Shown: positions 1 through 12,339 of the stretch, piece after piece
Numbering within the stretch: position 1 is the first letter of the stretch
Layout: the number at the start of each line of letters is the position of its first letter
Assembly (NCBI GenBank): GCA_021847305.1
Contig: JAJZTZ010000001.1
Span: 1 to 58,104 of the forward strand
Reading direction: 5' to 3'
From: Pseudomonadota bacterium
Lineage (GTDB): Bacteria; Pseudomonadota; Gammaproteobacteria; Burkholderiales; JAJZQI01
DNA: 58,104 bases
Notes under the pieces: model-generated
Databases searched by the model: none
What the model was told of the DNA's origin: nothing
The model's input: only the letters and a program-made list of their open reading frames with translations
Program-made: the position numbers and the translations under genes

Positions 1-153
1 TAAGGGGCATCACGCCCGTGATGCGGTCTACGGACCCAGTCAGTCGACTGTATTTCCTGAAGTGAGAATCACAAAACCATCTTGGGAGTGAAGCGGAATC
101 GCCGCAGTGGGAAAAACGTGGCCTGCGAAAAATCTAAAAAGGGGTTTTTATAC

Positions 154-225
154 AGCTTGAACGTTTGAATTCAGCGGACGGCAAAAGCGCAGCTTTTGAC
201 GGTCCGCTGGAATGATTTGTTAGCT
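154..225 (-). repeat. attC site 1
   Basis: + strand reads AGCTTGAAC GTTTGAATTCAGCGGACGGC [AAAAGCGCAGCTTTT] GACGGTCCGCTGGAATGATTT GTTAGCT. It is an imperfect hairpin with a bulged G on the right arm. The right box GTTAGCT is complementary to AGCTAAC at 638-644. Confidence 0.75.
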
Positions 226-632
226 TACTCATCCTTGCGCATGGCCTCGGAAATTGGTGAGAAAAATGCAAGTGCAAGAATGGCACCGTCAGTTAAACCT
301 GTGAGAGAACCCACTAGGTTGTCTAATGGGACAGTGATGGCCATACCGCTAAAGGGAACAGAGGCAACGCTTACTACAACAATGGCGAGTAGCAGCCAAC
401 GCCCCCAAGACAAGAACAATAAAAGGCCAATAGAAGAGACAACTTTCCCAAGCCCAATGGATAGGTAAAAGAAGGGGTGTTGTGTCCATGAATGGGAGCC
501 ATACCCGCCCCACGCCAGGAGGTTGGACACTTCCTTGGGGAATGCTCGTGGCGAATAGGGCAAAAAGAACCAAAGCAGGTAGGAAACCAGCGAGGCCAAA
601 ACGAGTAATTGGAATATGCGAGTGCGCGCCAT
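225..632 (-). CDS. Hypothetical small polytopic membrane protein (135 aa), cassette A
   Basis: This is the C-terminal 135 codons of track ORF 225..1121. An ATG at 632 lies 5 nt inside the cassette. The sequence MARTRIFQLLVLASLVSYLLWFF... has 3-4 hydrophobic segments. The rest of the 298-aa ORF crosses two attC sites and is discarded. No clear SD. Confidence 0.55.
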   Translation of the reverse strand: MARTRIFQLLVLASLVSYLLWFFLPYSPRAFPKEVSNLLAWGGYGSHSWTQHPFFYLSIGLGKVVSSIGLLLFLSWGRWLLLAIVVVSVASVPFSGMAITVPLDNLVGSLTGLTDGAILALAFFSPISEAMRKDE

Positions 633-637
633 GTGAA

Positions 638-701
638 AGCTAACGTTTAAGCTCAGGCGCGGCGCGCTTTTGCGCCGTCGCGCTGGAGCGCAGGGTTGGG
701 C
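638..701 (-). repeat. attC site 2
   Basis: AGCTAAC GTTTAAGCTCAGGCGCGGCGCGC TTTT GCGCCGTCGCGCTGGAGCGCAGG GTTGGGC. The two boxes of this site are not complementary to each other, but each matches the box across the adjacent cassette. Confidence 0.8.
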
Positions 702-724
702 GTGAAGACAATCGGAGAGAGAGC

Positions 725-973
725 ATGAAACTTGAACAAGTTGAGGTAAATAAAGAACAACTGAAGCTGGCAGAAGAAGCGCTACGGCGAGCAGGCGCTG
801 AATTAAAAACTGCATGGACACTGCTGAAGCACAATGGGATGGAGCCGACGGCAAAAGAACTGGCAGACACTGTGCTTGATGTGGAAATTTCAGCGGATCA
901 ACTGCGCGAATTTTTGACGCCCAACGTTCAAGGTAACCGGCCTGCCGCGCTTTTTGCGGCAGGTCCGGGTTGA
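725..973 (+). CDS. Hypothetical 82-aa helical protein, cassette B (inverted relative to inferred attC polarity)
   Basis: ATG is preceded by GGAGAGAGAG. The sequence MKLEQVEVNKEQLKLAEEALRRAGAELK... is charged and coiled-coil-like. The ORF ends inside attC 3. The antisense 76-aa ORF is Ser/Leu-rich and looks spurious. Confidence 0.45.
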   Translation: MKLEQVEVNKEQLKLAEEALRRAGAELKTAWTLLKHNGMEPTAKELADTVLDVEISADQLREFLTPNVQGNRPAALFAAGPG

Positions 974-987
974 CCGCAGGGTTGGGC
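919..987 (-). repeat. attC site 3
   Basis: GCCCAAC GTTCAAGGTAACCGGCCTGCCGC GCTTTTT GCGGCAGG-T-CCGG-G-TTGACCGCAGG GTTGGGC. The right arm carries unpaired T and G. Confidence 0.85.
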
Positions 988-993
988 GTCGCG

Positions 994-1398
994 CTACCGA
1001 GAGAGGGCATACCGTAGGCCATAGCCACCAAGAGTGGGTACGAACACGAAGGCCGCTTTTGAGTACCAACGCGCATACCACATGGGCTCGTCGCCAAGCG
1101 AAAACCCGAATTGGATTTCACCGGTTGCTTGAGCGGACCAGTAATCGAGTGCAGGGAAGAAAGCCCAGACTAGACCACCTATCAGAGCTGGAATTACTTG
1201 ACCAAGGGACAACACGTCAAATTTCAGCAGCGCGATACAGACGGCAAGTACTCCTCCAACTCGAAGGAGAACAGAGAGGCTGGTTTCAAAATTGACGTTG
1301 ATTGCGCCGGAAAACTTCCAGACTCCGAGAGCCAGCAGGCCGACGACAACTACTGCGATTACGACAAAAGCGTTTTCATCATTTGAACTGTTGCTCAC
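994..1398 (-). CDS. Hypothetical small membrane protein (134 aa), cassette C
   Basis: A GTG at 1398 is preceded by AAGGAGG with a 7-nt spacer. The ATG used by the ORF track (1437) lies inside the attC 4 core box. The sequence ...AFVVIAVVVVGLLALGVW..., GGVLAVCIALL, ALIGGLVWAFF has several hydrophobic segments. Confidence 0.55.
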   Translation of the reverse strand: MSNSSNDENAFVVIAVVVVGLLALGVWKFSGAINVNFETSLSVLLRVGGVLAVCIALLKFDVLSLGQVIPALIGGLVWAFFPALDYWSAQATGEIQFGFSLGDEPMWYARWYSKAAFVFVPTLGGYGLRYALSR

Positions 1399-1425
1399 TG
1401 CAATGCCTCCTTGGAGAAATGAGAT

Positions 1426-1498
1426 GCCCAACGTCAAAGCTCAGGGGCAGGACAAAAGCGCAGCTTTTGGCCTGTCCCTCTGGAGCGCCGTGTTGGGC
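1426..1498 (-). repeat. attC site 4
   Basis: GCCCAAC GTCAAAGCTCAGGGGCAGGAC [AAAAGCGCAGCTTTT] GGCCTGTCCCTCTGGAGCGCCGT GTTGGGC. The extra bases are on the right arm. Confidence 0.85.
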
Positions 1499-1523
1499 GA
1501 CATTGACTCACCATGTACGCAGC

Positions 1524-1778
1524 TTATTTGATTACAGCTAACCAAGCCGCAACTGCACTTACAAGTGAGGCAACAGCAGAAAATACGGCCACCAGCCAAA
1601 GACGGTGCTCACGCAGGTGCCGTTCAGCTTCCAGTACCCGGCGTTGTAATTCATAGTCATCAGCAATTATCGGCACGTTCCCACGGCCTGGAACGACTAC
1701 CGACTGGTCTGTTTCCATGATGACACCCAATTGCTCAGCTCTTTTTCGTAGCGCATCGCCGACGAGAAGTTTTTTCAT
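1524..1778 (-). CDS. Hypothetical 84-aa tail-anchored protein, second gene of cassette D
   Basis: The ATG lies 2 nt after the stop of the upstream M48 gene. A soluble N-terminal part has a helical stretch (DYELQRRVLEAERHLREHR). A single C-terminal TM segment follows (LWLVAVFSAVASLVSAVAAWLAVI). Confidence 0.6.
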   Translation of the reverse strand: MKKLLVGDALRKRAEQLGVIMETDQSVVVPGRGNVPIIADDYELQRRVLEAERHLREHRLWLVAVFSAVASLVSAVAAWLAVIK

Positions 1779-1780
1779 CT

Positions 1781-3016
1781 CTATTCACCAATCAATTGAA
1801 CATAGACCGGGCGAATGGAAACTGAGCTGTACCGAATTTGCTTCAACGGAATGCCGAATTCCTTCTGTTCGTAGGGCTGCATGGGAGACCATGGAATTTC
1901 ATCTCTCATCAGGACCATCTGACCATTCAGATATTCCAGGGCGACAATAGCATGCGAGATTTGCTTCCCGGAGGTGTTGACCGCAACACCGAATAAACCC
2001 CGCCCCCCACCGCTTGCGTTTGCAACCTGCAACCTTAAAAATTGGAGTCTTTGCGCAGCAAGGCGTTGCTGTTCCAGTTGTTTCGTTTGGCGCTTAAGCT
2101 GTTCCGTCTTGGCTTCCGTTGCCTCTACATAGGAATTTGCAACTGTTTCGAGCAGGGCCGCAAATCCGCCTCCTTCGCCAGCCTTGGCCGTTGAAGGTTT
2201 GCTGTACGAATAAAGGGCATTGTTCGTCAGAAGCTTTTCGTGCTCCGGGTTGATTTCGCCGGGAACAAGATATTGCTGTACCGCAGAAGCGTATTTCACC
2301 ATGTTCTTGGCGCGATCATCGTTGAGCGGGTGATCGAACATCATGTCGCCTGTATAGCTCCCCATCGCTTGGTGCATGCGGTTCCATACCCGGACACCCA
2401 CTGAGGGGTCGTAACCCGCTAAAGCCAAATAAAGGGTGGAGTACTTGTCCGCTTCGGCTTCTTGGTTCGTGGTAAAGCTGGCGTCAAAGCCTTTTTCCTT
2501 TCTCAGCCCTTTGTCGGCGAGCTTGGCAATCGCCAACTTGCCTCCCTTCTCGCTAGCGTGGCGAGCGGACACATGGGCCATTTCATGAGCGAGAACAGCA
2601 GCCAGTTCGCTGTCATCTCTGAGGCCAACTTCGCCCTGAAAAATTCCGGAGAAAACAAACATTTTTCCTCCCCCAATTGTGAAAGCGTTCCATTCTGGAG
2701 AATCCAAAACGTGGACTTCCCAGGGTAGTTGCTTTCTATGCGTCACTGTTTTCAGGCGATTGAATACACGATTGACCCTCTCGTAGTAAGGCGTTTCTCC
2801 GTCAATTTTTATCCCTTTTTGCTTTGCTTGGGACAATATCTGTCGCTGCGCTTCTTCCGCTTGGCGGATTTCTTGCTCCTCAGAGACGAGATTAATCTGA
2901 CGCTGGCCGGTTACAGGGTCACGCGACGAGACGCCATCACTGACTGCCATCATGCCTTTATCGATTGAGGCGCATCCTGTGAGCGCGACGACCAGAACAA
3001 CAGAAAATAGCCGCAT
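1781..3016 (-). CDS. M48-family zinc metalloprotease-like lipoprotein with an uncharacterised C-terminal extension, cassette D
   Basis: The lipoprotein signal MRLFSVVLVVALTGC has lipobox LTGC. The HExxH motif is in LAHEMAHVSARH (His codon at 2585-2587). An SD-like AAGGTGG lies 6 nt before the ATG at 3016. The C-terminal ~150 aa (coiled coil plus beta-rich part) is not recognisable. Confidence 0.8.
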   Translation of the reverse strand: MRLFSVVLVVALTGCASIDKGMMAVSDGVSSRDPVTGQRQINLVSEEQEIRQAEEAQRQILSQAKQKGIKIDGETPYYERVNRVFNRLKTVTHRKQLPWEVHVLDSPEWNAFTIGGGKMFVFSGIFQGEVGLRDDSELAAVLAHEMAHVSARHASEKGGKLAIAKLADKGLRKEKGFDASFTTNQEAEADKYSTLYLALAGYDPSVGVRVWNRMHQAMGSYTGDMMFDHPLNDDRAKNMVKYASAVQQYLVPGEINPEHEKLLTNNALYSYSKPSTAKAGEGGGFAALLETVANSYVEATEAKTEQLKRQTKQLEQQRLAAQRLQFLRLQVANASGGGRGLFGVAVNTSGKQISHAIVALEYLNGQMVLMRDEIPWSPMQPYEQKEFGIPLKQIRYSSVSIRPVYVQLIGE

Positions 3017-3081
3017 GTCGAACCACCTTTCCTTACGTGTCCTGCCCTCAAATATTGCTTGCATAGAACGCCTCTCTTGTC

Positions 3082-3147
3082 GCCCAACGTTTGAATTAAC
3101 CGGCTGGCGCGCTTTTGCGCCAGTCCGGGTTGAATGATGGGTTGGGC
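3082..3147 (-). repeat. attC site 5
   Basis: GCCCAAC GTTTGAATTAACCGGCTGGCGC GCTTTT GCGCCAG-T-CCGG-G-TTGAATGATGG GTTGGGC. Confidence 0.85.
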
Positions 3148-3155
3148 ATAGCCGA

Positions 3156-4091
3156 CTACTCCATAAGCTGCAAAATGCCGAGAGCCTTTCCTGTTAACTC
3201 CCTTGTTGAGTTTGGCGTGATGTTGGAAACCCCAAGGCTTGCAAGGTCAGCCTTCACATCTTTCCAGAGGTAGTAGGTATCGTCAGAAGAGACTTCAAGG
3301 TAAAACCGTGTCCATTTGTCTTGGTCTTGGCGGTGGAGGATGGGAGCAGCTTGATATACATGAACGTATTTTCTGGTACCGCGTTTCTCAGTATATGCCT
3401 CGACAACCAAGTCACCCGGTTTTGCTTCTGATCGGAAGCGGGACTTGCCAGACCAACGAATTGAACGTACCTCATAGCCATCTTTTTCGACGTGCTTTTC
3501 TGCTTCCTCAAGCCCTTGTAGCTCGAATGACTCCTCGGCACTGGTGATTCGTTCGCTAAGCTGGCGCGTTGAAATAAACCACACGCGCGATTCACCAACA
3601 GTTATTTTCTTCTTGCTTTGGCGGCTAAAGCCGGAGGCGCGGACAACTGGCAGTGCTTCTATTCGCTGAAGAAACTCCTCAGTAACTTGGATGGACTCGC
3701 TCTTGACGTTCTCGATGAATCCTTGAACCAAGCCCGCAATTTGAGAGTCGTCTGTGAATAATGAAGCTTCGCAGGTGCCGACACCTGCATTTTCTGAAAG
3801 ATTCGCAGATCCAATTAACGAGTGGTTGTCGATGACGGCCACTTTAGAGTGCAATCCATCGAAGGAATAGAGTTCGGCTCCTTGATCGAAGAATGCTCGC
3901 AGAACTGAGGCCGATGTTAAGCCGCCTTTGATTGCATCATCGGATGCGTCACAGATAAGTAAATCGCCTTGGCGGAAATCAAGGTGTCGCGCTGTCACAT
4001 AAGAAATGGCGGCGCGTATGCGTTTGTGGTTTGCCGATTGCTGAGACAACTCAGCCCACAGGTCATCACTCAGGAGCGTTTTCATAGTCAT
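3156..4091 (-). CDS. Single-HKD phospholipase D-family (Nuc/BfiI-like) nuclease domain fused to an unknown ~170-aa C-terminal domain, cassette E
   Basis: The motif LHSKVAVIDNHSLIGSANLS fits HxK(x)4D(x)5GSxN (nt 3801-3851). The N-terminal ~135 aa resembles PLDc_2. The start is uncertain: TTG at 4103 lies inside the attC core, and ATGs occur at 4091 and 4085. No SD. Confidence 0.8.
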   Translation of the reverse strand: MTMKTLLSDDLWAELSQQSANHKRIRAAISYVTARHLDFRQGDLLICDASDDAIKGGLTSASVLRAFFDQGAELYSFDGLHSKVAVIDNHSLIGSANLSENAGVGTCEASLFTDDSQIAGLVQGFIENVKSESIQVTEEFLQRIEALPVVRASGFSRQSKKKITVGESRVWFISTRQLSERITSAEESFELQGLEEAEKHVEKDGYEVRSIRWSGKSRFRSEAKPGDLVVEAYTEKRGTRKYVHVYQAAPILHRQDQDKWTRFYLEVSSDDTYYLWKDVKADLASLGVSNITPNSTRELTGKALGILQLME

Positions 4092-4097
4092 AGAAAT

Positions 4098-4163
4098 GCC
4101 CAACGTGGAGTTGAGCGAGCGGAGCGCCGCAGGCGCGGAGTCCGCTCGAACGGAGGGTTAGAT
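4098..4163 (-). repeat. attC site 6
   Basis: GCCCAAC GTGGAGTTGAGCGAGCGGAGCGCCGC AGGC GCGGAGTCCGCTCGAACGGAGG GTTAGAT. The boxes are non-complementary within the site. Each matches its neighbour cassette box. Confidence 0.8.
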
Positions 4164-4458
4164 GCTGCACATTTACACAGCGAAGTTTCAATCGGCAACG
4201 GATTACCTTGACCAGTGCGGTGAGGTTGAATTCCGTGGCGGGTTTGAGCCGGAGAAGCTGATTTACGCCGACTGCTGCGGGAAACAACGGCCAGCAAAAG
4301 ACTGTGTTGTGCAGTGCTACTACGATGGCCAGAGCATCTGGTGCGCACCTGAAAAGGGCTGCAAAGACCCGCAAGTGATTGCGGCGAAGAAGGCACGAGA
4401 GTTTGCGAATCGGAGTGCAGGACAAAAGGCTCGATGGGCGAAGGCATCTAACGTTTAG
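4162..4458 (+). CDS. Hypothetical Cys-rich 98-aa protein, cassette F (inverted)
   Basis: The ATG overlaps the GTTAGAT box. Seven Cys fall within ~50 residues (DQCGEV, DCCGK, KDCVVQCYYDGQSIWCAPEKGC), followed by a basic C-terminal tail. The two 119-aa antisense ORFs cross attC 6 and look spurious. Confidence 0.45.
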   Translation: MLHIYTAKFQSATDYLDQCGEVEFRGGFEPEKLIYADCCGKQRPAKDCVVQCYYDGQSIWCAPEKGCKDPQVIAAKKAREFANRSAGQKARWAKASNV

Positions 4459-4509
4459 CTTAAGGGGCGCGCGGCTTTTCGCGCGTCCCGCTTGAAGCGC
4501 CTGTTAGGC
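4446..4509 (-). repeat. attC site 7
   Basis: ATCTAAC GTTTAGCTTAAGGGGCGCGCG GCTTTTC GCGCG-T-CCCGC-TTGAAGCGCCT GTTAGGC. The reverse complement reads GCCTAAC..CTTCAAGCGGGAC...CCCTTAAGCTAAAC GTTAGAT. Confidence 0.85.
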
Positions 4510-4524
4510 GCTATTGGAGGAAAG

Positions 4525-4716
4525 ATGAAACCGAAAGACATTATGTTTTCCGTGAACGAATACGACCGCGATGGTGATTGCACCGACAAGGGTGTATTCC
4601 TCCATTTCGGAGAAACGAAGGTAAAGGCTGCGGACGGCATCAAGGAATTTGCCGAGATCGTGCGCCACTTCGAGGCGATGGTGGAAGAAATTGAAACCAA
4701 CTATGCGGACGCCTAA
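4525..4716 (+). CDS. Hypothetical acidic 63-aa protein, cassette G (inverted)
   Basis: The ATG is preceded by GGAGGAAAG. The sequence is MKPKDIMFSVNEYDRDGDCTDKGVFLHFGETKV... The stop TAA lies inside the GCCTAAC box. The track ORF starts earlier (4492), inside attC 7. Confidence 0.45.
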   Translation: MKPKDIMFSVNEYDRDGDCTDKGVFLHFGETKVKAADGIKEFAEIVRHFEAMVEEIETNYADA

Positions 4717-4760
4717 CGTAAATTAGGCGGCGTTGGAAAAGTGGTGTCACGCCGCCTAAA
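4711..4760 (-). repeat. Degenerate terminal attC-like hairpin (half site)
   Basis: The sequence is GCCTAAC GTAAATTAGGCGGCG [17-nt loop] CGCCGCCTAAATCTA. The inner box is complementary to GTTAGGC at 4503-4509. There is no outer core box and there are no bulged bases. Confidence 0.55.
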
Positions 4761-5025
4761 TCTATTTATTAAATTTATATCCATTAAATAACAATAACTT
4801 AATAATCGCATTTGCTTTTAACCCAACCTAAAAAAATGCGGATGAAAGTTCATGTTCTACATAAACATCCTTGCCCTTCCTGCCATGATATGCGGACATT
4901 TGGATTATGACAAATGATTGGATTTATCACTTATTTTCACTTCAACAAGAGCGTGCCAAAAGACAAAACAGAGCCCGTGGCCTTAGGGTTCTGGTCGCGA
5001 AGGGATAAAACGGACTAACAGGAAT

Positions 5026-5079
5026 GGCGCAAAGCCGAGATACCGCATTAAACGGTATCTTGATGGCTTGCTTTGTGCC
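5026..5079 (-). terminator. Compound hairpin downstream of gltX (putative terminator)
   Basis: The inner stem is AGATACCG/CGGTATCT (5038-5060). The outer stem is GGCGCAAAGC/GCTTTGTGCC. Only a weak U-tract follows on the - strand. Confidence 0.4.
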
Positions 5080-5090
5080 CTAACCGAAGG

Positions 5091-6485
5091 TTAGGAAGCG
5101 GACAGGGCGTTGAGCTGGCGGCGCAGGCGGGTCAGCACTTCATCTTTGCCGATGAGTGCCAGAACGGCATCGATGGAGGGGGTTTGCGGTTCGCCGGTGA
5201 CCAGCACGCGCAGGGGCATGGCCACCTTGGGCAGTTTCAGGCCGTGTTCCGCGACGATGGCTTTCATCACGTCGTGAATGGCTTCGCGGGTCCAGTCGAT
5301 GGCTTCAAAGCGGTCGGCCACTTGTTGCATCACCGGCAGAATGTCTGCACCGACGTGCTGTTCGATGACGGCGGGTTCGGCATCCAGCGGTCGATAGAAA
5401 TACACGGCCGCATCGGCCAGTTCTTCAATGGTGTTGACGCGTTCTTTCAGCAGGTCGATGACCAGCGGCAGGGCCGGGCCATGGCTCGGGTCGCATTCGT
5501 CGCGCAGCAGAAAGGGGCGGACCAGTTCCGACAAACGGTTGCTGTCGGCCTGCTTCAGGTATTGCTGGTTGATCCAGTTGAGCTTTTCCGGGTTGAAGCG
5601 GGACGGAGAGCGGGAGATGCCTTCCAGATTGAACCATTCGGTAAACTGGTCCATGGTAAACACTTCTTCGTCGCCTTTGGCCCAGCCCAGGCGTGCCAGG
5701 TAGTTGAGCAGTGCCTCGGGCAGGTAGCCGTCTTCTTCATACTGCATCACGCTGACCGCGCCGTGGCGCTTTGACAGCTTTTCCCCGTCGTGTCCCAGAA
5801 TCATCGGTACGTGTCCGTACTTGGGCAAGGGGGCGCCGAGCGCCTTGAGGATGTTGATCTGGCGCGGTGTGTTGTTGACGTGGTCGTCGCCGCGAATCAC
5901 GTGGGTGATTTGCATGTCCCAGTCGTCCACCACCACGCAGAAGTTGTAGGTAGGTGAACCGTCCGAGCGGGCAATGATCAGGTCGTCCAGCTCGCTGTTC
6001 TGCACAATGATCTGCCCTTTCACCAGGTCGTCGATGACAACGGCGCCGTCGAGCGGGTTCTTGAAGCGGACAACCGGTGACACGCCGGTCGGGGGCGTGG
6101 CGGTTGAGTCGCGCCAACGACGGTCGTAGCGGGGTTTCTCGCCTTTGGCCATCTGCTCTTCGCGCATGGCATCGAGCTCTTCCTTGCTGGCGTAGCAGTA
6201 ATAGGCTTTGCCTTCGGCCAGCAATTGGTCGATCACTTCCTTGTAGCGATCCATGCGCTTGGTCTGATAGAAAGGACCTTCGTCGTAGTCGAGCCCAAGC
6301 CACTTCATGGCATCGAGAATGACCTGGGTGTTTTCCGGGGTGGAGCGTTCCAGATCGGTGTCTTCAATACGCAGAACAAAGGTACCCTTGTGCCGGCGAG
6401 CGAATGCCCAGGAGAACAGGGCAGTACGGGCGCCGCCCAAGTGCAGATAACCGGTGGGGCTGGGAGCGAAACGGGTGCGGACCAT
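5091..6485 (-). CDS. gltX: Glutamyl-tRNA synthetase
   Basis: 464-aa ORF. The N-terminus [20 protein letters not shown] carries the HIGH-type motif. KLSKR is the KMSKS-type motif. Confidence 0.96.
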
Positions 6486-6645
6486 GGCAGTGAGCTGAGT
6501 GAATCAAAGCCGCTATTTTACGCAATAACTGGCAATGCCGCCATGTTGCAGCCGAGGTAAAGAGGGGGCCAGTGCTGGCAGAAGTGGTTCTAGGTGGGCT
6601 GGGAGCGATCTGCTACCATGCGCCAGCTAGAGCGCTATATTGTTT

Positions 6646-7578
6646 ATGACAACACTGGTTAATACCGCCACACACCGGCAGGATGCATTCTGGGGAATTC
6701 TCTTTTCCCTGTTGGCCGCTATTGGTTTTTCCATCAAGTCCATTCTGGTCAAGCTGGCCTATGTATACGTGGTGGATGCAGTCACCTTGCTGACCCTGCG
6801 GATGGTCTTCTCCGTGCCGTTTTTTCTGATGATCGCCTTCTGGGCTGGGGCCCGCCAGCAGGAGCCGTTGCAAAAACGGAAGTGGCTGGTGATCGGTGCG
6901 CTCGGCTTGGGCTATTACCTGTTCAATTATCTGGATTTTCTCGGCCTGCAGTATGTTTCCGCCGGGCTTGAGCGGCTGATCCAGTTTCTCTACCCGACTT
7001 TGACGGTGGTGCTGGCGGCCTTGCTTTATCGTCGGGCTATCTCCTCCAAGGTGATTGCCGCCATGCTGCTCAGTTACGCCGGTATCGCCATGGTGTTCAT
7101 GCATGATGTGCGGGTCAGCGAGAGTGGAATTGTGCTGGGCGCGTCGCTGGTTTTTGCCAGTACGCTGTTCTACGCGATCTATCTGGTGGGGGCGGGGCAC
7201 TCGATTGCACGCATGGGAACGGTGAGATTCACGGCTTATGCGATGCTGATCGCCAGCACCATCAGCGTGAGTCAGTTTGCCCTGACACACCCGCTGACAG
7301 CGCTGGTGCAACCCGCGCCGGTGTATCAGCTGGCCTTTATGATGGCGATCTTTTCCACCGTTTTGCCGGTATTCCTGTTAACGGCCGGTATCCGCCGGAT
7401 CGGTTCCGGCGAGGCTTCTCTGATCGGCTCGATCGGCCCGGTGTTTACCATTTACCTGGCGCATGTGTTCCTTGATGAGCATGTTTCTGCCTTGCAAATC
7501 GGCGGGTCGCTTCTTGTATTGGTCGGTGTGGTTGCGGTCAGTCTGAGCAGCCGCAGCGATGTTCGGCCGATCAGCTGA
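6646..7578 (+). CDS. EamA/DMT-family transporter
   Basis: ~310 aa with about ten hydrophobic segments in a two-fold arrangement. ATG at 6646 (TTG at 6640 is also possible). Confidence 0.8.
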   Translation: MTTLVNTATHRQDAFWGILFSLLAAIGFSIKSILVKLAYVYVVDAVTLLTLRMVFSVPFFLMIAFWAGARQQEPLQKRKWLVIGALGLGYYLFNYLDFLGLQYVSAGLERLIQFLYPTLTVVLAALLYRRAISSKVIAAMLLSYAGIAMVFMHDVRVSESGIVLGASLVFASTLFYAIYLVGAGHSIARMGTVRFTAYAMLIASTISVSQFALTHPLTALVQPAPVYQLAFMMAIFSTVLPVFLLTAGIRRIGSGEASLIGSIGPVFTIYLAHVFLDEHVSALQIGGSLLVLVGVVAVSLSSRSDVRPIS

Positions 7579-7587
7579 TCTGCCCGA

Positions 7588-8106
7588 TTATCTCGCCTCC
7601 GGCGGACCATGACGTTTCTGTTCTGCCAATGGCAAGGTCAGCGTTTCCTTCACTTCTTCCATCACGATATAGCTTCTTGATTCCTGCGCGCCGGGCAGCG
7701 TGAGCAGAATGTCGCCCAGCAAAGTCCGGTAATCCGACATTTGCGGAATGCGCGCCTTGACCAGGTAATCAAAGTCACCCGAAACCAGATGACATTCCAG
7801 CACGCTGGGCAGTTTGATGATTGCCCGTTTGAACTTCTCGAAAATGGTCCCTGACTTGGCGGACAGCTTGATCTCGACAAACACCAGCAGGTTGAGGTCC
7901 AGCGCATTGGGGTCGATACGGGCGTAGTAGCCCAGAATGACGCCCTCTTTTTCCAGGCGCTTTATCCGCTCCCCGCAGGGCGTGACTGACAGACCCACTT
8001 TTTCGGCCAGATCGGTGATGGAAATACGGGCGTCTGTTTGCAGGATGGAAAGAATTTTACGGTCGATATTGTCCAGTTCGCGGACGGCATGGGTGCGGAT
8101 TCTCAT
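7588..8106 (-). CDS. lrp: Lrp/AsnC-family transcriptional regulator
   Basis: LDNIDRKILSILQTDARISITDLAEKVGLSVTPCGERIKRLEKEGVILGY...LLVFVEIKL closely parallels E. coli Lrp. It is divergent from dadA. Confidence 0.9.
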   Translation of the reverse strand: MRIRTHAVRELDNIDRKILSILQTDARISITDLAEKVGLSVTPCGERIKRLEKEGVILGYYARIDPNALDLNLLVFVEIKLSAKSGTIFEKFKRAIIKLPSVLECHLVSGDFDYLVKARIPQMSDYRTLLGDILLTLPGAQESRSYIVMEEVKETLTLPLAEQKRHGPPEAR

Positions 8107-8306
8107 AGGATTTTACTGTGTAGTTAAAATTGCTGGAATTTTTATGATTACATAATGAATATATATTGTCAGTCAAAAAATATGCAATTTTTTACTGGAT
8201 AATCTGGAAATATAGAAAATTCACCTGGCGGGTGAGGCGTACACTCTGGCCGTAATAGGGCTGTAAAAGGCCATTTATCGAGATGGGCTTCTTCTGGGGG
8301 TGTGGG

Positions 8307-9617
8307 ATGCGAGTTGTTGTTCTGGGTAGCGGGGTGGTGGGGGTGACCAGTGCGTATTACCTGGCGAAGGCGGGATTTTCCGTGACGGTGCTGGATCGCC
8401 AAAGCGGGCCGGGTATGGAAACGAGTTTTGCCAATGCGGGGCAGGTATCGCCCGGCTATTCGGCGCCCTGGGCCGCTCCGGGTATTCCCTTGAAGGCGGT
8501 CAAGTGGCTGTTCCAGCGCCATGCCCCGCTGTCGATCCGACCGGACGGCTCCTTGTGGCAGTGGCAGTGGCTGGGAATGATGTTGCGCAACTGCACGGAG
8601 GACCGCTATGCCGTTAACAAATCGCGCATGGTGCGGCTGGCGGAATACAGCCGCGACTGTTTGCGCGAGCTGCGGGCGGAGACCGGTATTCAATATGAGC
8701 AGCGTACGCAGGGAACGCTGCAGGTCTTTCGTACGCAACAGCAGCTGGATGCGGCTGGAAAAGACATTGCCGTGCTGGCCGAGTGCGGAGTGCCTTATGA
8801 GGTGCTGGACCGCGATGGCTGCGCGAGCGCGGAACCGGCGTTGGGCCTGGTAAAAGAAAAACTGGTCGGCGGCTTGCGCCTGCCGGGCGACGAGACGGGC
8901 GACTGCCAGCTCTTTACCACGCGTTTGGTAGAAGAGGCGCGTAAGCTGGGTGTCGAATTTCGCTACAACTTTCCGATCGAGCGCCTGCTGACTGCCAACG
9001 GCAAGGTGACGGGCGTTGAAGGCGGCGGGGAACGGATCGAGGCCGATCAGTTTGTGGTGTCTCTGGGCAGCTATTCGCGCGATTTGCTGCAATCGCTCGG
9101 CATGAAGATCCCAGTCTATCCGGTCAAAGGTTATTCCCTCACCGTTCCGATCACCAATCCGGCTGCGGCACCGGTTTCGACCATCATGGACGAAACGTAC
9201 AAGATCGCCATCACGCGTTTTGACGACCGTATCCGTTTGGGCGGCATGGCCGAACTGGCGGGCTTTGATTTGCAGCTGAATCCGAAACGGCGGGAAACGC
9301 TGGAAATGGTGGCCGGCGACCTGTTCCCGCAGGGCGGGGATATTCCGTCGGCCACCTTCTGGACCGGTCTGCGGCCGATGACGCCGGATGGCACGCCGAT
9401 CATCGGCGGCACCCCTTACGAAAACCTGTGGCTGAATACCGGCCACGGCACCCTGGGGTGGACCATGTCGTGCGGTTCCGCTCGCGTGTTGGCGGATCTC
9501 GTTGCCCGCCGCCGCCCGGCGATTGAAGCCCGGGACCTGGGGCCCTGTCGTTATGAGCCCGGCGTGCCCGATTGCAATCCGGCCGCGTCGATGGCGATGT
9601 CTGGCGCGACAAAATAA
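8307..9617 (+). CDS. dadA: D-amino acid dehydrogenase
   Basis: [32 protein letters not shown] is an FAD GxGxxG fold. It is DadA-like throughout. The ATG at 8307 lies inside track ORF 8283..9617. Confidence 0.93.
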
Positions 9618-9641
9618 TTAAGAATAGAAGGCATATGCAGT

Positions 9642-10727
9642 ATGAGTCGACCTACAACCGCGCGCGTCCGCCTGGATGCGCTGCGCCATAATTATCTTCA
9701 GGCAAAAGCGTTGCATGGCGAACGGGCGCTGGCCGTGGTCAAGGCAAACGCCTACGGTCATGGAGCGGTGCAGTGTGCCAAAGCCCTGGAAACCGTCGCG
9801 GATGGTTTTGCCGTTGCCGCAATCGAAGAGGCGCTGGCCCTCAGAACTGCCGGCATCAACGGACCGATTTTGCTGCTGGAAGGTTTTTTTGAAGCGAGTG
9901 AGTTGGCGGAGATTGTTGATCAGGATTTGTGGACGGTCGTGCATCATCCCTGGCAGCTTGAGGCTTTGCTTGCCAGCAAGCTTGATAAGCCCATTACCGT
10001 ATGGCTCAAGATGGACAGCGGCATGCACCGGGTCGGCTTTGATCCGGCCATGTTTCGACAGGCTTATGAGCAACTCAGCGCCAGCCCCAATGTGCGTCAA
10101 ATTGTCCTGATGAGCCACTTTGCCCGGGCCGATGAACCGAATGCGGCGCACCCCAAGCAGCAAATGGAAATTTTCCGTGCAACGACCGAGGGTATCGAGG
10201 CTCCGGTCAGTCTGTCCAATTCGGCGGGCATTCTCGGTTGGCCGTCGACGCATGTGAACTGGGGCCGACCGGGGATCATGCTCTATGGCGTGAATCCTTT
10301 CGATGGCCTGGAAGCCAGTCAAGAGGTGACCGGCGACTTGCGCCCGGTGATGCAGCTCGAGTCGGCTGTTATTGCCGTGCGCTCGATTGCGCCTGGAGAG
10401 CCCGTCGGCTACGGCGGAGCTTTCGTCGCCGACCGGCCGACACGAGTGGGCGTGGTGGCGTGCGGTTATGCCGATGGTTATCCACGCATTGCGCCAACCG
10501 GGACACCGGTTGCAGTGGATGGACAATTGACGCGTTTGATCGGCCGGGTGTCGATGGACATGCTGACCGTCGATTTGACCGATTTGCCCGCAGCCGGGCT
10601 GGGCAGCCGTGTCGAATTGTGGGGTGACACCGTGCCTGTCAGCCGGGTGGCCGGCCTGGCCGGCACGATCGCCTATGAAATTTTATGCAATGTGAAGCGT
10701 GCCCGTTTCCATTATTCCGATAATTGA
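9642..10727 (+). CDS. dadX: Alanine racemase (catabolic, dadA-linked)
   Basis: 361 aa with the PLP-lysine motif VVKANAYGHG. It lies immediately downstream of dadA. Confidence 0.93.
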   Translation: MSRPTTARVRLDALRHNYLQAKALHGERALAVVKANAYGHGAVQCAKALETVADGFAVAAIEEALALRTAGINGPILLLEGFFEASELAEIVDQDLWTVVHHPWQLEALLASKLDKPITVWLKMDSGMHRVGFDPAMFRQAYEQLSASPNVRQIVLMSHFARADEPNAAHPKQQMEIFRATTEGIEAPVSLSNSAGILGWPSTHVNWGRPGIMLYGVNPFDGLEASQEVTGDLRPVMQLESAVIAVRSIAPGEPVGYGGAFVADRPTRVGVVACGYADGYPRIAPTGTPVAVDGQLTRLIGRVSMDMLTVDLTDLPAAGLGSRVELWGDTVPVSRVAGLAGTIAYEILCNVKRARFHYSDN

Positions 10728-11355
10728 AGGAAATTCCGATGAAACAGATTCAAAATACATGCGGCCATGTCCAGTGGACAATGTGTGGTATTCGTCAAGA
10801 ATCAGCAGGCTGCCGTACTTAGTCGTCAATTGCCGCAGCTTTTCGATAAAGTTAGGTGGAGACGATCCATATCGCAATTTGCCAGGGCCAGTTCAAGCAA
10901 TGCGTAGGCGACTTCGGTTGCTAGTGCGTGTTCCATTGTTGCGACATCGGTGAAATCGACGGCAACGGTATTAAAGTCTCAGGGCGAACATCTGGTCGAG
11001 CAAAATGGTTCGGCGGAGAGTGTAGCCACGTTCGAGGTCAACTAGGGCGTCATCAATCGTGCCGTGGTAGCAACTGTCGAACACCAGCAGTTTTGATGAC
11101 GGCGCGCCCATTTCGGGTGTAAGCGCGTCGGAATGGCGTGTCTGGGCTGTGGCCAAAATGGCGCCATCAGATAATATTCAAAGTGGCTCTGTGGGTCATT
11201 TGTTGGGTTATCCGAGCGAAGAGATATCTGAAATGGCAAGTTTTCCTGAAGTGATTTTGCAGTCTGCTCCAAATTTGATTTGTTCCACGGCGTGCGCAAC
11301 GTTTTTCCTTTTGCCTGAACGACGACGATGATCGTCTGGCTGGAATTGCAATCAC
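10683..11355 (-). pseudogene. Decayed class-III (GSA-aminomutase-like) aminotransferase remnant
   Basis: Fragments lie in three - strand frames: ...SSKLLVFDSCYHGTIDDALV; VAVDFTDVATMEHALATEVAYALLELALAN; PPNFIEKLRQLTTKYGSLLILDEYHT. Frameshifts and stops interrupt them. The C-terminal third is missing and the remnant abuts or overlaps the dadX end. Confidence 0.6.
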
Positions 11356-11394
11356 CTATAGTGGATCAACTGAACTGAACGGAGTGGTACTCTC

Positions 11395-12339
11395 ATGAAT
11401 CATGCATTTGCTTATCTGTCTTCCGGCGGCTTCCTCGGCCTGCCCATCACCCACGGCGCAGCGGCGTCCGACTCATCCAAGACGTTCGCCATTGCCGGCA
11501 TCAACTGGGACGGCAGCGTAACGAACCGGCCGGGGGCGCGCCTCGGACCCAATGCCATCAGACAGTCCAGCCGGATGTTGTGCGATGCCACGCATCCGCT
11601 GTTCGACGTGTCGCCCTTCGATCAGTTGGTCGATCTGGGCGACTTGCTGCTGCCCAATACCGGACTTGAATCCATGCGCGCCGCATTGATGCCGCAGGCC
11701 CAGGCGCTGCTCGGCAAGCACGAAATGGCGTGGCTGGGCGGCGATCATTCCATCACCCTGCCATTGCTGCGTGCCTATCATGCGCATTATGGAAAACCGC
11801 TGGCCTGTATTCACTTCGACGCACATTGCGATACCTGGACCGACCATTTTGGCGAGCCATCGGGTCATGGCACCTGGGTGTATGAAGCGATTACCGAAGG
11901 ACTGGTGATGCCGGAAGCCTTTATTCAGGTTGGCATCCGCTCATCCGGCGTGCGTGAGGCGCGCGAGTTCGTCAATGACAGGGGCGGGCGCATTTTCACC
12001 GCCCGCGAATTGCGCGGCCGTGACGGCGACGCCTTGCAGAGCGTGATCAGCGAGGTGAAAGAGCGCCTGGCCAAGGCCGGCAATCCTCCCGTTTACCTCA
12101 CCTTCGATATCGATGCGCTGGACCCGGCCTACGCTCCGGGAACTGGCACGCCCGAACCCGGCGGCCTGACCACGGCACAGGCGATGACCTTGCTGGAGGG
12201 TTGGCATGATCTGAACTGGGTGGGAATGGATTGCACCGAGGTTGCTCCGCCGTTCGATTACTCCGAACTGACCAGCAACGCGGCGGCAACTCTGGTGTGG
12301 ACGTGGATGTGCGGACGCATGGCCGCCGGCATTAAATAA
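11395..12339 (+). CDS. Agmatinase-family ureohydrolase (SpeB/GbuA-like)
   Basis: 314 aa with the Mn-site motifs GGDHSITLPLL, HFDAHCDTW and TFDIDALDP. Confidence 0.88.
   Translation: MNHAFAYLSSGGFLGLPITHGAAASDSSKTFAIAGINWDGSVTNRPGARLGPNAIRQSSRMLCDATHPLFDVSPFDQLVDLGDLLLPNTGLESMRAALMPQAQALLGKHEMAWLGGDHSITLPLLRAYHAHYGKPLACIHFDAHCDTWTDHFGEPSGHGTWVYEAITEGLVMPEAFIQVGIRSSGVREAREFVNDRGGRIFTARELRGRDGDALQSVISEVKERLAKAGNPPVYLTFDIDALDPAYAPGTGTPEPGGLTTAQAMTLLEGWHDLNWVGMDCTEVAPPFDYSELTSNAAATLVWTWMCGRMAAGIK

What the first reader, a model, noticed from the sequence alone, without database searches (positions are those of the whole stretch)
3088..4103. Cassette E: stand-alone single-HKD PLD-family nuclease fused to an unknown C-terminal domain - candidate defence or restriction-like effector
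The 311-315 aa ORF has one HKD motif (LHSKVAVIDNHSLIGSANLS) in a ~135-aa PLDc_2-like N-terminal domain. Single-HKD proteins such as Nuc and the catalytic domain of BfiI dimerise to form a metal-independent nuclease site. In BfiI the C-terminal domain provides DNA recognition. Here the C-terminal ~170 aa (…RVWFISTRQLSERITSAEESFELQG…GDLVVEAYTEKRGTRKYVHVYQAAPILHRQDQDKWTRFYLEVSSDDTYYLW…) matches nothing I can name. The cassette contains no methyltransferase or immunity ORF. PLD-fold nucleases recur in phage-defence systems, and integron cassettes have been reported to carry compact anti-phage genes. A one-gene nuclease cassette with a novel specificity domain is therefore the most attractive candidate for a new function in this window.
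Basis: partly seen in the sequence, partly recalled or inferred. Interest (0 to 1): 0.75.

Follow-up and report, generated by a model that had tools for sequence, protein, structure and literature searches.

The report
Integron cassette encoding modified-DNA restriction nuclease
This single-gene integron cassette encodes a metal-independent (phospholipase-D-type) nuclease fused to a previously unannotated domain whose predicted fold is that of "reader" domains for chemically modified bases. It is most likely a one-protein restriction enzyme that cuts modified foreign (phage) DNA: an uncharacterised family of a known kind.

Summary
An ORF at 3156..4091 on the minus strand (311 aa, or 309 from 4085) fills one integron cassette (4103->3088) bounded by two attC hairpins. 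The TTG at 4103 is part of the attC core, not a start codon.

- **N-terminal domain:** residues 1-148 are a single-HKD PLD domain (Pfam PLDc_2, 32.4 bits against a cut-off of 27). H79, K81, N95 and E106 are invariant in 43 homologues. The closest folds are SauUSI, NucT, BfiI, Zucchini and Nuc.
- **C-terminal domain:** it matches no Pfam, NCBIfam, PADLOC or PHROG model. Its model is confident (pLDDT 92) and has a PUA-like fold. The best match is the YTH-like DNA-binding domain of Thermococcus gammatolerans McrB, followed by ASCH, YTH, SRA and Lon-N.
- **Family:** about 550 clusters at 50% identity, almost always with this same two-domain architecture, spread patchily across phyla.
- **Context:** homologues sit inside type I R-M loci, beside McrBC, next to TIR/SLOG and toxin-antitoxin genes, and in other integron cassettes.

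My best reading (about 0.6) is a homodimeric, single-chain type IV, modification-dependent restriction endonuclease. PLD-EVE/PUA fusions have already been predicted computationally, and PLD-sensor "END" nucleases have been validated experimentally. I therefore rate it a new member of a known kind. The modification it recognises is unknown.

The parts
3156..4091 (-). Gene for the PLD-nuclease/PUA-like-reader protein (311 aa from ATG 4091; alternative ATG 4085 gives 309 aa; stop TAG 3158-3156)
   Evidence: ORF list. The 309- and 311-aa forms are the ones on record. 110 full-length homologues.
3648..4085 (-). N-terminal single-HKD PLD nuclease domain (residues ~1-146 of the 309-aa form; HxK..GSxN motif at H79-S97)
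   Evidence: Pfam PLDc_2 32.4 bits, above the gathering score of 27. H79, K81, G92, S93, N95, S97 and E106 are invariant in 43 sequences. Foldseek matches: SauUSI 7.6e-8, NucT 3e-7, BfiI 3e-6, Zucchini and Nuc 1e-5.
3588..3647 (-). Basic, poorly ordered inter-domain linker (…RASGFSRQSKKKITVGES…)
   Evidence: The pLDDT dip to ~62 is the only low-confidence block in the full-length model. Net charge is +4.
3159..3587 (-). C-terminal PUA-like (YTH/EVE/ASCH-like) beta-barrel domain, the putative modified-base reader. Conserved residues: W169, R210, aromatic 211, G213, S215, F217, R218, G224, D225, R252, T259, R260, F261, W274.
   Evidence: AF2 model with pLDDT 92, pTM 0.84. Foldseek PDB: T. gammatolerans McrB N-terminal domain 6p0f/6p0g at E 2.7e-4, TM 0.52, then ASCH, YTH, SRA and Lon-N. 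BFVD: ASCH and DUF3850. A weak collinear hhalign match to EVE aligns RW.G…AKPGD with W.GVRN…MK.GD.
4098..4163 (-). attC of the preceding cassette. Its R' core GTTGGGC (4104-4098) marks the 5' boundary of cassette E and contains the spurious TTG 'start'.
   Evidence: Core-site scan. Hairpin fold -17.8 kcal/mol, z = -2.4. The same junction, GTTGGGCATTTCTATG, is seen in L037 and L038.
3082..3147 (-). attC of cassette E (R'' GCCCAAC … R' GTTGGGC); its last base, 3088, is the 3' cassette boundary
   Evidence: Core-site scan. Canonical hairpin with R''/R' pairing and a central stem, -20.9 kcal/mol, z = -4.9. The homologous attC follows the gene in L037 and L034.

Best explanation
Cassette E encodes a single-chain, NTP-independent, modification-dependent (type IV) restriction endonuclease.

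The proposed mechanism is as follows.
1. The C-terminal PUA-like barrel binds DNA and flips a modified base into a conserved aromatic/arginine pocket. This is how the YTH-like McrB N-terminal domain, EVE (VcaM4I) and SRA (MspJI, UHRF1) domains work.
2. Two protomers bring their single HKD motifs together to form one PLD active site, as in Nuc and BfiI.
3. That site cuts nearby DNA without metal ions, through a covalent phospho-histidine intermediate on H79.
4. Host DNA lacks the recognised modification, so no methyltransferase or immunity gene is needed and the whole system fits in one ~1-kb integron cassette.

Shown here: the two domains, their invariant residues, the fold assignments, the cassette structure, and the association of homologues with restriction and defence genes. 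Inferred: dimerisation, DNA (rather than RNA) as substrate, base flipping, dependence on modification, and anti-phage or anti-plasmid function. Which modification is read is undetermined.
For: - **Nuclease domain.** PLDc_2 scores above its cut-off and the HxK/N/E residues are invariant. The nearest structures are nucleases, including the type IV enzyme SauUSI and the type IIS enzyme BfiI.
- **Reader domain.** The model is confident. Its only significant PDB match is the YTH-like DNA-binding domain of a type IV enzyme (TgMcrB, 6p0f/6p0g, probability 1.0). Below it come other PUA-superfamily readers: ASCH, YTHDF2, SRA and Lon-N. BFVD independently gives ASCH and DUF3850.
- **EVE-like motifs.** A collinear hhalign match to canonical EVE domains aligns the aromatic-x-G and AKPGD motifs. 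The aromatic in W-x-G lines the base pocket in EVE (PMC7897488).
- **Gene content.** There is no methyltransferase or second ORF in the cassette.
- **Type I R-M neighbours.** L017 is hsdR-gene-hsdM with overlapping ORFs. L022 is WYL-gene-hsdM-hsdS-TIR-SLOG. L027 is integrase-gene-hsdM. L019 (Massilia) is hsdR…gene-UDG. P0131 carries an HsdS-like tail.
- **Other defence neighbours.** McrB(EVE)-McrC in L023 and L031, PIN toxin-antitoxin pairs in L001/L013, HEPN_AbiU2 in L036 and Schlafen/AlbA_2 in L039.
- **Distribution.** It is patchy and crosses phyla, with many pseudogenised copies, as is typical of defence genes.
- **Precedent.** PLD N-terminal domain plus sensor C-terminal domain single-gene 'END' nucleases restrict hypermodified phages (PMC12191111). 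EVE-PLDc fusions are predicted type IV enzymes (PMC7641849). Integron cassettes are known to carry defence systems (bioRxiv 10.1101/2024.07.02.601719).
Against: - There are no functional data.
- The C-terminal domain fails every sequence model of EVE, YTH, ASCH and SRA.
- Its hhalign probability against EVE is only 18-34%. The best TM-score is a modest 0.52 with rmsd 6 Å. The pocket could not be inspected in 3D.
- The C-terminal domain is not basic (net charge -1).
- The same reader was not found fused to other nucleases or to McrB. The same PLD domain was not found fused to other readers. The domain shuffling typical of modification-dependent enzymes is therefore not seen for this family.
- About half of the homologue contexts are housekeeping genes.
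- One homologue lies 1.4 kb from a C5-methyltransferase-like ORF and four lie next to N6-adenine HsdM.
- The cassette has no own promoter or Shine-Dalgarno sequence (only 6-12 nt separate attC and ATG), so expression in this host is uncertain.
Confidence: 0.6

Rival explanations
1. It is a ligand- or RNA-sensing abortive-infection nuclease. The PUA-like domain would bind a free modified nucleotide or a modified RNA base (for example in a tRNA anticodon loop) rather than modified duplex DNA. That binding would switch on the PLD nuclease, which degrades RNA or cellular DNA non-specifically. In type I R-M operons it could act like PrrC or RloC, as a back-up that fires when restriction is inhibited.
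For: - ASCH, PUA and YTH relatives of the fold are mostly RNA binders.
- The PLD nuclease Zucchini, among the structural matches, is annotated as acting in the piRNA pathway (established knowledge).
- In L017 the gene sits inside a type I R-M operon with overlapping ORFs, and it also neighbours HsdM in L022 and L027. This is the position PrrC occupies in EcoprrI (established knowledge).
- A PUA-Cal-HAD system senses free m6-dAMP (PMC12871103).
- CoCoNuT type IV-like systems are predicted to target RNA (PMC11090510).
Against: - The best structural match (the TgMcrB N-terminal domain) binds DNA and has little affinity for RNA (PMC7544203, summarising Hosford 2020).
- The gene is usually stand-alone, with no partner that could hold a toxic nuclease in check.
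- No conserved neighbour exists across loci.
Confidence: 0.17
2. It is a modification-independent nuclease. It would be either a BfiI-like sequence-specific type IIS enzyme whose methylase is elsewhere, or a non-specific Nuc-like DNase used for DNA uptake, nutrition or plasmid exclusion. The C-terminal barrel would serve only as a DNA clamp.
For: - BfiI, NucT and Nuc are close structural matches to the N-terminal domain.
- A weak RE_NgoFVII hit was found (21.2 bits).
- Several homologues sit next to methyltransferases.
Against: - The C-terminal domain gives no B3/EcoRII-type pseudobarrel hit in its top 50 structural matches.
- The RE_NgoFVII score is below its cut-off of 23.8.
- There is no signal peptide. 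Nuc and NucT are ~155-180 aa secreted single-domain proteins, whereas this protein has a conserved second domain.
- There is no cognate methylase in the cassette or in most loci. The neighbouring methylases are HsdM of complete type I systems.
- A sequence-specific enzyme without its methylase would be lethal and could not move as a one-gene cassette.
Confidence: 0.07
3. It is a non-defence housekeeping enzyme. It could be a DNA-repair phosphodiesterase in which a PUA-like domain recognises damaged bases and the PLD domain acts like Tdp1. Or it could be a lipid-metabolising PLD or cardiolipin-synthase-like enzyme.
For: - The JGI automatic name for fragments is 'phosphatidylserine/…/cardiolipin synthase-like enzyme'.
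- There is a weak ClsB hit (14.6 bits).
- Some homologues lie among housekeeping genes, and one lies next to a UDG-family gene.
Against: - The ClsB score is far below its cut-off of 281.
- There is one HKD motif, no transmembrane segment, and the structural neighbours are nucleases.
- The distribution is patchy, the gene is carried on integron cassettes and IS-rich plasmids, and pseudogenes are frequent. All of this argues against a core function.
Confidence: 0.05

Closest known systems
PUA-superfamily/nuclease fusion MDREs (EVE-HNH VcaM4I/TspA15I, SRA-PD-(D/E)XK MspJI/PvuRts1I) and the computationally listed EVE-PLDc fusions (Bell, Wolf & Koonin 2020, PMC7641849; Lutz 2019, PMC6765204)
   Same: A one-polypeptide, NTP-independent architecture with a PUA-like base-flipping reader plus a nuclease. 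There is no methyltransferase. The genes occur in defence islands.
   Different: The nuclease is PLD (metal-independent and obligately dimeric for catalysis), not HNH or PD-(D/E)XK. The domain order is nuclease at the N-terminus and reader at the C-terminus. No PLD-PUA enzyme was found characterised in the searched literature.
END nucleases (END-PaCF1; bioRxiv 2025, PMC12191111)
   Same: A single-gene defence system with an N-terminal HxK PLD nuclease related to BfiI and SauUSI and a C-terminal modification sensor. It is missed by PADLOC and DefenseFinder. That paper explicitly notes sister fusions of this PLD domain to EVE/PUA.
   Different: The END sensor is an inactivated EndoIII/OGG-like helix-hairpin-helix domain. 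Here the sensor is a PUA-like beta-barrel.
[quoted passage not shown]
   Same: It is the best structural match to the C-terminal domain (E 2.7e-4, TM 0.52). It is a YTH-like reader in a type IV restriction system that flips a base and prefers N6mA DNA (PMC7544203).
   Different: It is fused to a GTP-dependent AAA+ motor and works with McrC. There is no detectable sequence similarity. Specificity cannot be transferred.
SauUSI (PDB 7clg)
   Same: It is the best full-length structural hit. It is a type IV enzyme with an N-terminal PLD nuclease that cuts 5mC/5hmC DNA.
   Different: SauUSI has an ATP-dependent helicase and a DUF3427 target-recognition domain and is ~950 aa. This protein is 311 aa with no motor.
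BfiI / NgoAVII (type IIS, PLD + B3-like pseudobarrel)
   Same: A single-HKD N-terminal domain that dimerises to form one active site, with a C-terminal DNA-recognition domain.
   Different: The C-terminal fold is not B3-like. There is no cognate methyltransferase. The RE_NgoFVII score is below its cut-off.
PLD-wH fusion endonucleases Aba4572I/CbaI (PMC11037411)
   Same: A small PLD nuclease with a C-terminal methylation reader, sometimes next to type I methyltransferases, giving Dam-dependent toxicity.

Membership tests
PLD superfamily, single-HKD nuclease clade (Nuc/BfiI/SauUSI-type) | HxK(x)4D(x)6GSxN motif with conserved downstream Asn/Glu; PLDc_2 profile match above cut-off | tested here: met
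   PLDc_2 scores 32.4 bits against a gathering score of 27. H79, K81, G92, S93, N95 and E106 are invariant in 43 sequences.
PLD superfamily, single-HKD nuclease clade (Nuc/BfiI/SauUSI-type) | Fold closest to nuclease members rather than lipid-metabolising members | tested here: met
   The top Foldseek hits are SauUSI, NucT, BfiI, Zucchini and Nuc (E 8e-8 to 1e-5).
PLD superfamily, single-HKD nuclease clade (Nuc/BfiI/SauUSI-type) | Homodimer forms the active site; metal-independent cleavage via phospho-histidine | not testable with these tools
   No multimer prediction or assay was available. This is inferred from there being only one HKD motif per chain.
Type IV modification-dependent restriction endonuclease with PUA-superfamily reader | Reader domain of PUA-like fold (SRA/EVE/YTH/ASCH) | tested here: met
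   The AF2 model has pLDDT 92. PDB hits are the TgMcrB N-terminal domain (probability 1.0), ASCH 3iuw, YTHDF2 and SRA. BFVD gives ASCH and DUF3850. This is fold-level evidence only.
   No Pfam hit even at E<=10. hhalign against EVE gives 18-34% probability.
Type IV modification-dependent restriction endonuclease with PUA-superfamily reader | Conserved aromatic or hydrophobic pocket for a flipped base | tested here: inconclusive
   W169, aromatic 211, F217, F261 and W274 plus R210, R218, R252 and R260 are >=90% conserved. The aromatic-x-G motif aligns with the EVE W-x-G. Model coordinates could not be inspected.
Type IV modification-dependent restriction endonuclease with PUA-superfamily reader | No cognate methyltransferase; stand-alone gene | tested here: met
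   The cassette holds one ORF. No neighbour is conserved across 20+ loci.
Type IV modification-dependent restriction endonuclease with PUA-superfamily reader | Cleavage depends on a modified base; restricts modified phage or plasmid DNA | not testable with these tools
   This needs biochemistry and phage assays.
Integron gene cassette | A single ORF followed by an attC (R''-L''…L'-R' imperfect hairpin) and preceded by the R' core of the previous attC | tested here: met
   attC sites lie at 3082-3147 and 4098-4163. Five consecutive attC sites were folded.
Integron gene cassette | The same cassette is found in other arrays or sites, with homology ending at the cassette boundaries | tested here: met
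   In L037/L038 the gene is flanked by attC sites and has different neighbours. Homology to L034 is limited to 4107->3086.
Integron gene cassette | Adjacent intI integrase and attI | tested here: not met
   gltX abuts the array. A crude box-II motif scan found no tyrosine recombinase in the window. The array looks like a CALIN-type cluster or a degraded integron.
BfiI-like type IIS restriction enzyme | C-terminal B3-like DNA-binding pseudobarrel and a cognate methyltransferase | tested here: not met
   No B3, EcoRII or BfiI C-terminal hit among the top 50 matches. No methylase in the cassette. RE_NgoFVII scores 21.2, below its cut-off of 23.8.
DISARM DrmC | Equivalog score and co-location with drmA/drmB/drmMI | tested here: not met
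   NF038319 scores 27.2 bits against a cut-off of 133. PADLOC DrmC hits are limited to the HKD region. No DISARM genes lie nearby.
SauUSI family | PLD + SF2 helicase + DUF3427 target-recognition domain | tested here: not met
   The protein is 311 aa with no helicase or DUF3427 hit.

The most novel reading that the evidence does not exclude
The C-terminal barrel may be a new PUA-like reader family with a specificity not yet seen among restriction enzymes. Candidates are a hypermodified phage base, a damaged base or a free modified nucleotide. In that case the protein would be the smallest metal-independent modification-sensing nuclease. Alternatively it may be a PrrC-like back-up effector wired into type I R-M systems, rather than a simple type IV enzyme.
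Probability: 0.2. Interest if true: 0.7.

Novelty: new member of a known kind. Interest (0 to 1): 0.45.

Why it matters
If confirmed, this family (about 550 clusters at 50% identity, annotated only as 'phospholipase D family protein' or 'hypothetical') would add a compact type IV restriction enzyme to the defence catalogue. It would be EDTA-resistant. PADLOC and current profile libraries miss it. It would be the first characterised PLD + PUA-like modification-dependent endonuclease.

Such enzymes are useful as epigenetic mapping reagents, as MspJI and AbaSI are, and as probes for modified phage genomes. The finding also gives a concrete example of a restriction function moving as a one-gene integron cassette in environmental (Nitrosomonas-like) bacteria. 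That supports the view of integrons as defence biobanks.

The concept itself (nuclease plus modified-base reader) is well established, so a specialist would find it plausible rather than surprising.

Tried and rejected
- **Sequence searches of the C-terminal domain.** Pfam at E<=10, NCBIfam, PADLOC, PHROGs, PDB phmmer and profile hmmsearch all returned nothing meaningful. The only hit was ribosomal L14 at E 0.85.
- **Domain shuffling.** The C-terminal profile against 1.84 billion representatives and the N-terminal profile against the 5.8-billion set returned only the same two-domain family, plus fragments and frameshifted copies. No alternative fusions were found.
- **A conserved partner gene.** The ORFs overlapping the start of the gene in L004 (282 aa) and L036 (264 aa) are unrelated. 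All-against-all BLAST of 132 neighbours gave only HsdM, McrB/McrC, AAA and WYL pairs. I therefore rejected a two-gene system.
- **BfiI-like type IIS reading.** Rejected because there is no B3-like fold and no methylase.
- **DrmC/DISARM, SauUSI, Nuc/NucT and ClsB membership.** Rejected on scores and architecture.
- **attC sites beside distant homologues.** A strict regex found none. Only close relatives (>=74% identity) are cassettes.
- **Phage genomes.** No homologue in INPHARED.
- **Rfam on 1-12000.** No hits.
- **Base-binding pocket.** It could not be inspected because model coordinates are not exposed.
Full report
**1. What is in the sequence.**
The minus strand carries an ORF that ends at 3156. 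Its most upstream possible start is TTG 4103 (315 aa). That TTG is part of the sequence GTTGGGC at 4104-4098, the R' core of an attC site. Integron recombination occurs between the G and the TT of this core, so the TTG is the first triplet of the cassette rather than a likely initiation codon. Database gene calls and homologues start at ATG 4091 (311 aa, 'MTMKT…') or ATG 4085 (309 aa, 'MKT…'). I number residues from the 309-aa form.

The gene is bracketed by two attC sites, at 4163..4098 and 3147..3082. Both fold as single-stranded hairpins with paired R''/R' boxes and a G+C-rich central stem (-17.8 and -20.9 kcal/mol; z = -2.4 and -4.9 against shuffles). Three further attC sites in the array fold equally well.

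**2. The cassette is a mobile unit.**
- The closest relatives are also cassettes. In L037 and L038 (85% protein identity) the gene is preceded by an attC with the identical junction GTTGGGCATTTCTATG and followed by a homologous attC. The neighbouring cassettes differ.
- Against a Nitrosomonas MAG (L034, 74% identity), DNA similarity runs from window 4107 to 3086, within 2-4 nt of the cassette ends. There the cassette lies between mgtE and an FMN-reductase gene.
- The array in this window has no integrase next to it. gltX (5091..6485, minus strand) abuts it, and a crude scan for the tyrosine-recombinase box II motif found nothing in 58 kb.
- A sigma-70-like site at 4913-4885 on the minus strand could drive the array. 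The cassette itself has only 6-12 nt between its boundary and the ATG.

**3. N-terminal domain.**
- Pfam PLDc_2 matches residues 49-127 at 32.4 bits (gathering score 27). Weaker hits are to the PLDc active-site motif and to RE_NgoFVII, both below their cut-offs.
- PADLOC and NCBIfam give only sub-threshold DrmC, NucT and ClsB hits on the HKD region.
- In an alignment of 43 full-length homologues down to 33% identity, L78, H79, K81, G92, S93, N95, S97 and E106 are invariant. From my knowledge of Nuc (not tested here), these correspond to the His/Lys/Asn/Glu catalytic set.
- The AlphaFold2 model has pLDDT 92.3 and pTM 0.76. Its best matches are SauUSI (7.6e-8), NucT (3e-7), BfiI (3e-6), Zucchini and Nuc (1e-5).
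- There is one HKD motif per chain, so catalysis requires a dimer, as in Nuc and BfiI. This is an inference.

**4. C-terminal domain.**
- By sequence it matches nothing: Pfam at E<=10, PDB by phmmer or by profile, and PHROGs.
- Modelled alone with 36 homologues it is confident (pLDDT 92.0, pTM 0.84). It forms a six-to-seven-stranded barrel with a two-helix insertion after strand 1 and two C-terminal helices.
- Foldseek against the PDB gives two significant hits. Both are the N-terminal domain of Thermococcus gammatolerans McrB (6p0f and 6p0g; E 2.7e-4 and 4.8e-4, probability 1.0, TM 0.52/0.47).
- Below threshold come ASCH (3iuw), YTH of YTHDF2 and YTHDF1, SRA of UHRF1 and SUVH6, Lon N-terminal domains and the PUA-like domain of APS kinase. 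All belong to the PUA-like superfamily.
- BFVD independently returns ASCH ('activating signal cointegrator') and DUF3850 proteins.
- The TgMcrB domain is a YTH-like reader that flips a base and prefers N6mA DNA, with little RNA binding (PMC7544203, summarising Hosford 2020).

**5. Sequence-level link to EVE.**
I built a small EVE profile from five PDB EVE domains, recovered, plus the EVE domain of the McrB in L023. hhalign against the C-terminal profile gives a collinear 97-column alignment:
- 'RW-G-S..RFR-eAKPGD' aligns with 'eW-GVRNyqArn-mrAMK-GD';
- 'kWTRFY' aligns with 'kW..vDv';
- 'STRELT' aligns with 'Sv.pvT'.

The probability is only 18-34%, with pairwise E about 1e-3. [quoted passage not shown]

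Here the residues conserved at >=90% are W169, R210, G213, S215, F217, R218, G224, D225, R252, T259, R260, F261 and W274. Position 211 is W, F or Y in most of the sequences shown and C in two. This is compatible with an aromatic/arginine nucleotide pocket, but I could not inspect coordinates. The fold-level assignment is well supported. Membership of the EVE, YTH or ASCH sequence families is not met.

**6. The family.**
- The full-length search found 110 proteins, nearly all 305-330 aa with both domains.
- The C-terminal profile found 548 clusters at 50% identity (347 at E<=1e-10). In the 150 listed, the domain sits at about 158-312 of ~310-aa proteins. Shorter entries are fragments, and longer ones still have PLDc_2.
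- The N-terminal profile found only the same family, including many truncated or frameshifted copies.
- The two domains are therefore an obligate pair.
- Distribution is patchy: Thiolinea, Nitrosomonas, Massilia consociata CCM 7792, Verrucomicrobiota, Acidobacteriota, Planctomycetota, Bacteroidota, Myxococcales and Actinomycetota. In addition, 59 Rhodococcus plasmids carry 25-29%-identical copies among IS elements, annotated 'phospholipase D family protein'.
- No copy was found in the phage genome collection.

**7. Genomic company.**
No neighbour is conserved, so this is a one-gene system. Restriction and defence genes nevertheless recur nearby:

| Locus | Arrangement |
|---|---|
| L017 | hsdR (EcoEI_R_C) - gene - hsdM, with overlapping ORFs |
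| L022 | AAA - WYL/WCX - gene - hsdM - hsdS - TIR - SLOG |
| L027 | integrase - gene - hsdM … hsdM |
| L019 (Massilia) | hsdR … gene - UDG-superfamily protein |
| P0131 | read-through into an HsdS-like tail |
| L023, L031 | EVE-McrB + McrC (immediately upstream of the gene in L023, nearby in L031) |
| L001-3, L013 | between two PIN toxin-antitoxin pairs |
| L036 | HEPN_AbiU2 upstream, Prim-Pol element nearby |
| L039 | Schlafen/AlbA_2 ATPase |
| L009 | AAA_15/AAA_23 ATPase and a PIN protein |

Across 106 neighbour ORFs the most frequent Pfam families were N6_Mtase/HsdM_N (4), PIN (3), McrBC (2), AAA_5 (2) and WYL/WCX (2). Roughly half of the loci show only housekeeping neighbours. This resembles the placement of Mrr and McrBC beside hsdRMS in the E. 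coli 'immigration control region' (established knowledge).

**8. Mechanism proposed.**
I propose a single-chain type IV (modification-dependent) restriction endonuclease. The PUA-like domain reads a modified base in incoming DNA. Two chains then assemble one PLD active site, which cleaves nearby DNA without metal ions. Host DNA lacks the mark, so no immunity gene is needed, and this explains the one-gene cassette.

The modification cannot be named:
- The nearest structure prefers N6mA, while EVE and SRA readers prefer 5mC and 5hmC.
- Four homologues lie next to N6-adenine HsdM (NPPF/NPPY motifs), and one lies 1.4 kb from a C5-methylase-like ORF (GGPPCPDFS…ENV).
- Any specificity must therefore be context-restricted, or directed at phage-type hypermodifications.

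**9. Rivals.**
- An RNA- or nucleotide-sensing abortive nuclease, possibly PrrC-like when embedded in type I operons, cannot be excluded (0.17).
- A modification-independent nuclease (0.07) and a housekeeping or lipid enzyme (0.05) are disfavoured by the fold, the lack of a methylase or signal peptide, and the mobile, patchy distribution.

**10. Comparison with what is known.**
- Modification-dependent enzymes built from a PUA-superfamily sensor and a nuclease are well established (PMC6765204, PMC7897488).
- EVE-PLDc fusions were listed as predicted type IV enzymes (PMC7641849).
- PLD-wH fusions show Dam-dependent toxicity (PMC11037411).
- The 2025 END-nuclease preprint showed that a single PLD-N-terminal/sensor-C-terminal protein defends against hypermodified phages, and it noted PLD-EVE/PUA relatives (PMC12191111).
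- A literature search for PLD-EVE, PLD-PUA or PLD-YTH enzymes returned nothing.
- Integron cassettes encoding defence systems are documented (bioRxiv 10.1101/2024.07.02.601719; PMC12614218).

This is therefore a new, uncharacterised member of a known kind. Its reader domain is missed by current profile libraries and by PADLOC.

**11. Verdict.**
Novelty is moderate: the family is unannotated and untested, but the concept is established. Interest is 0.45. The candidate is worth cloning, because the assays are simple and the enzyme could be useful.

Noticed in passing
window 1-4830 (minus strand) and 4830-5090: The attC array has no adjacent integrase: gltX (5091..6485, minus strand) abuts it. 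A crude box-II motif scan found no tyrosine recombinase anywhere in the 58-kb window. A sigma-70-like site (TTGTCA-17-TATCAT) at 4913-4885 on the minus strand lies where a cassette promoter would be. This looks like a CALIN-type cluster or an integron that has lost intI.
   Followed up: partly
window 4162-4458 (+) and 4492-4716 (+): The two cassettes upstream of cassette E carry their only sizeable ORFs in the orientation opposite to their attC sites. One is a 98-aa Cys-rich protein and the other is 74 aa. Neither function was examined.
   Followed up: no
window 1781-3064 (-): The next cassette downstream encodes a 427-aa protein with an HEMAH zinc-protease motif and a lipoprotein-like N-terminus. 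A cluster member is named 'predicted Zn-dependent protease'. This is unusually large for a cassette.
   Followed up: no
L034 5985-7007 (Nitrosomonas MAG JAEUNG010000322.1): A homologous cassette sits alone between mgtE and an FMN-reductase gene. An attC follows it, but no attC is visible upstream. DNA homology to the window ends at the cassette limits. It may be a secondary-site insertion or a one-cassette remnant.
   Followed up: partly
L022 3786-11510 (Bacteroidetes MAG): A dense defence island: AAA ATPase, WYL/WCX regulator, the PLD/PUA gene, hsdM, hsdS, a TIR-domain protein and a SLOG (LD_cluster3) protein. The AAA + WYL pair recurs in L023 beside an EVE-McrB/McrC system.
   Followed up: partly
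L019 7252-8049 (Massilia consociata CCM 7792): A UDG-superfamily protein lies immediately downstream of the homologue and of a type I hsdR. It could be one of the recently described defence DNA glycosylases. This strain is a cultured isolate in which the gene could be studied.
   Followed up: no
L018 3513-4622 (Planctomyces MAG): A C5-cytosine-methyltransferase-like ORF (motifs GGPPCPDFS and ENV) lies 1.4 kb upstream of a homologue.
   Followed up: partly
P0258, P0265, P0272, P0262, P0090 and others: Many database copies of the family are truncated or frameshifted within the C-terminal domain, even on long contigs. This suggests frequent pseudogenisation. P0322 from Rhodococcus jostii has HxN in place of HxK.
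   Followed up: partly
L004 7156-8004 and L036 2755-3549: In two loci an uncharacterised ORF (282 and 264 aa, no Pfam hit) overlaps the start of the PLD/PUA gene by 4 bp. The two ORFs are unrelated to each other.
   Followed up: yes
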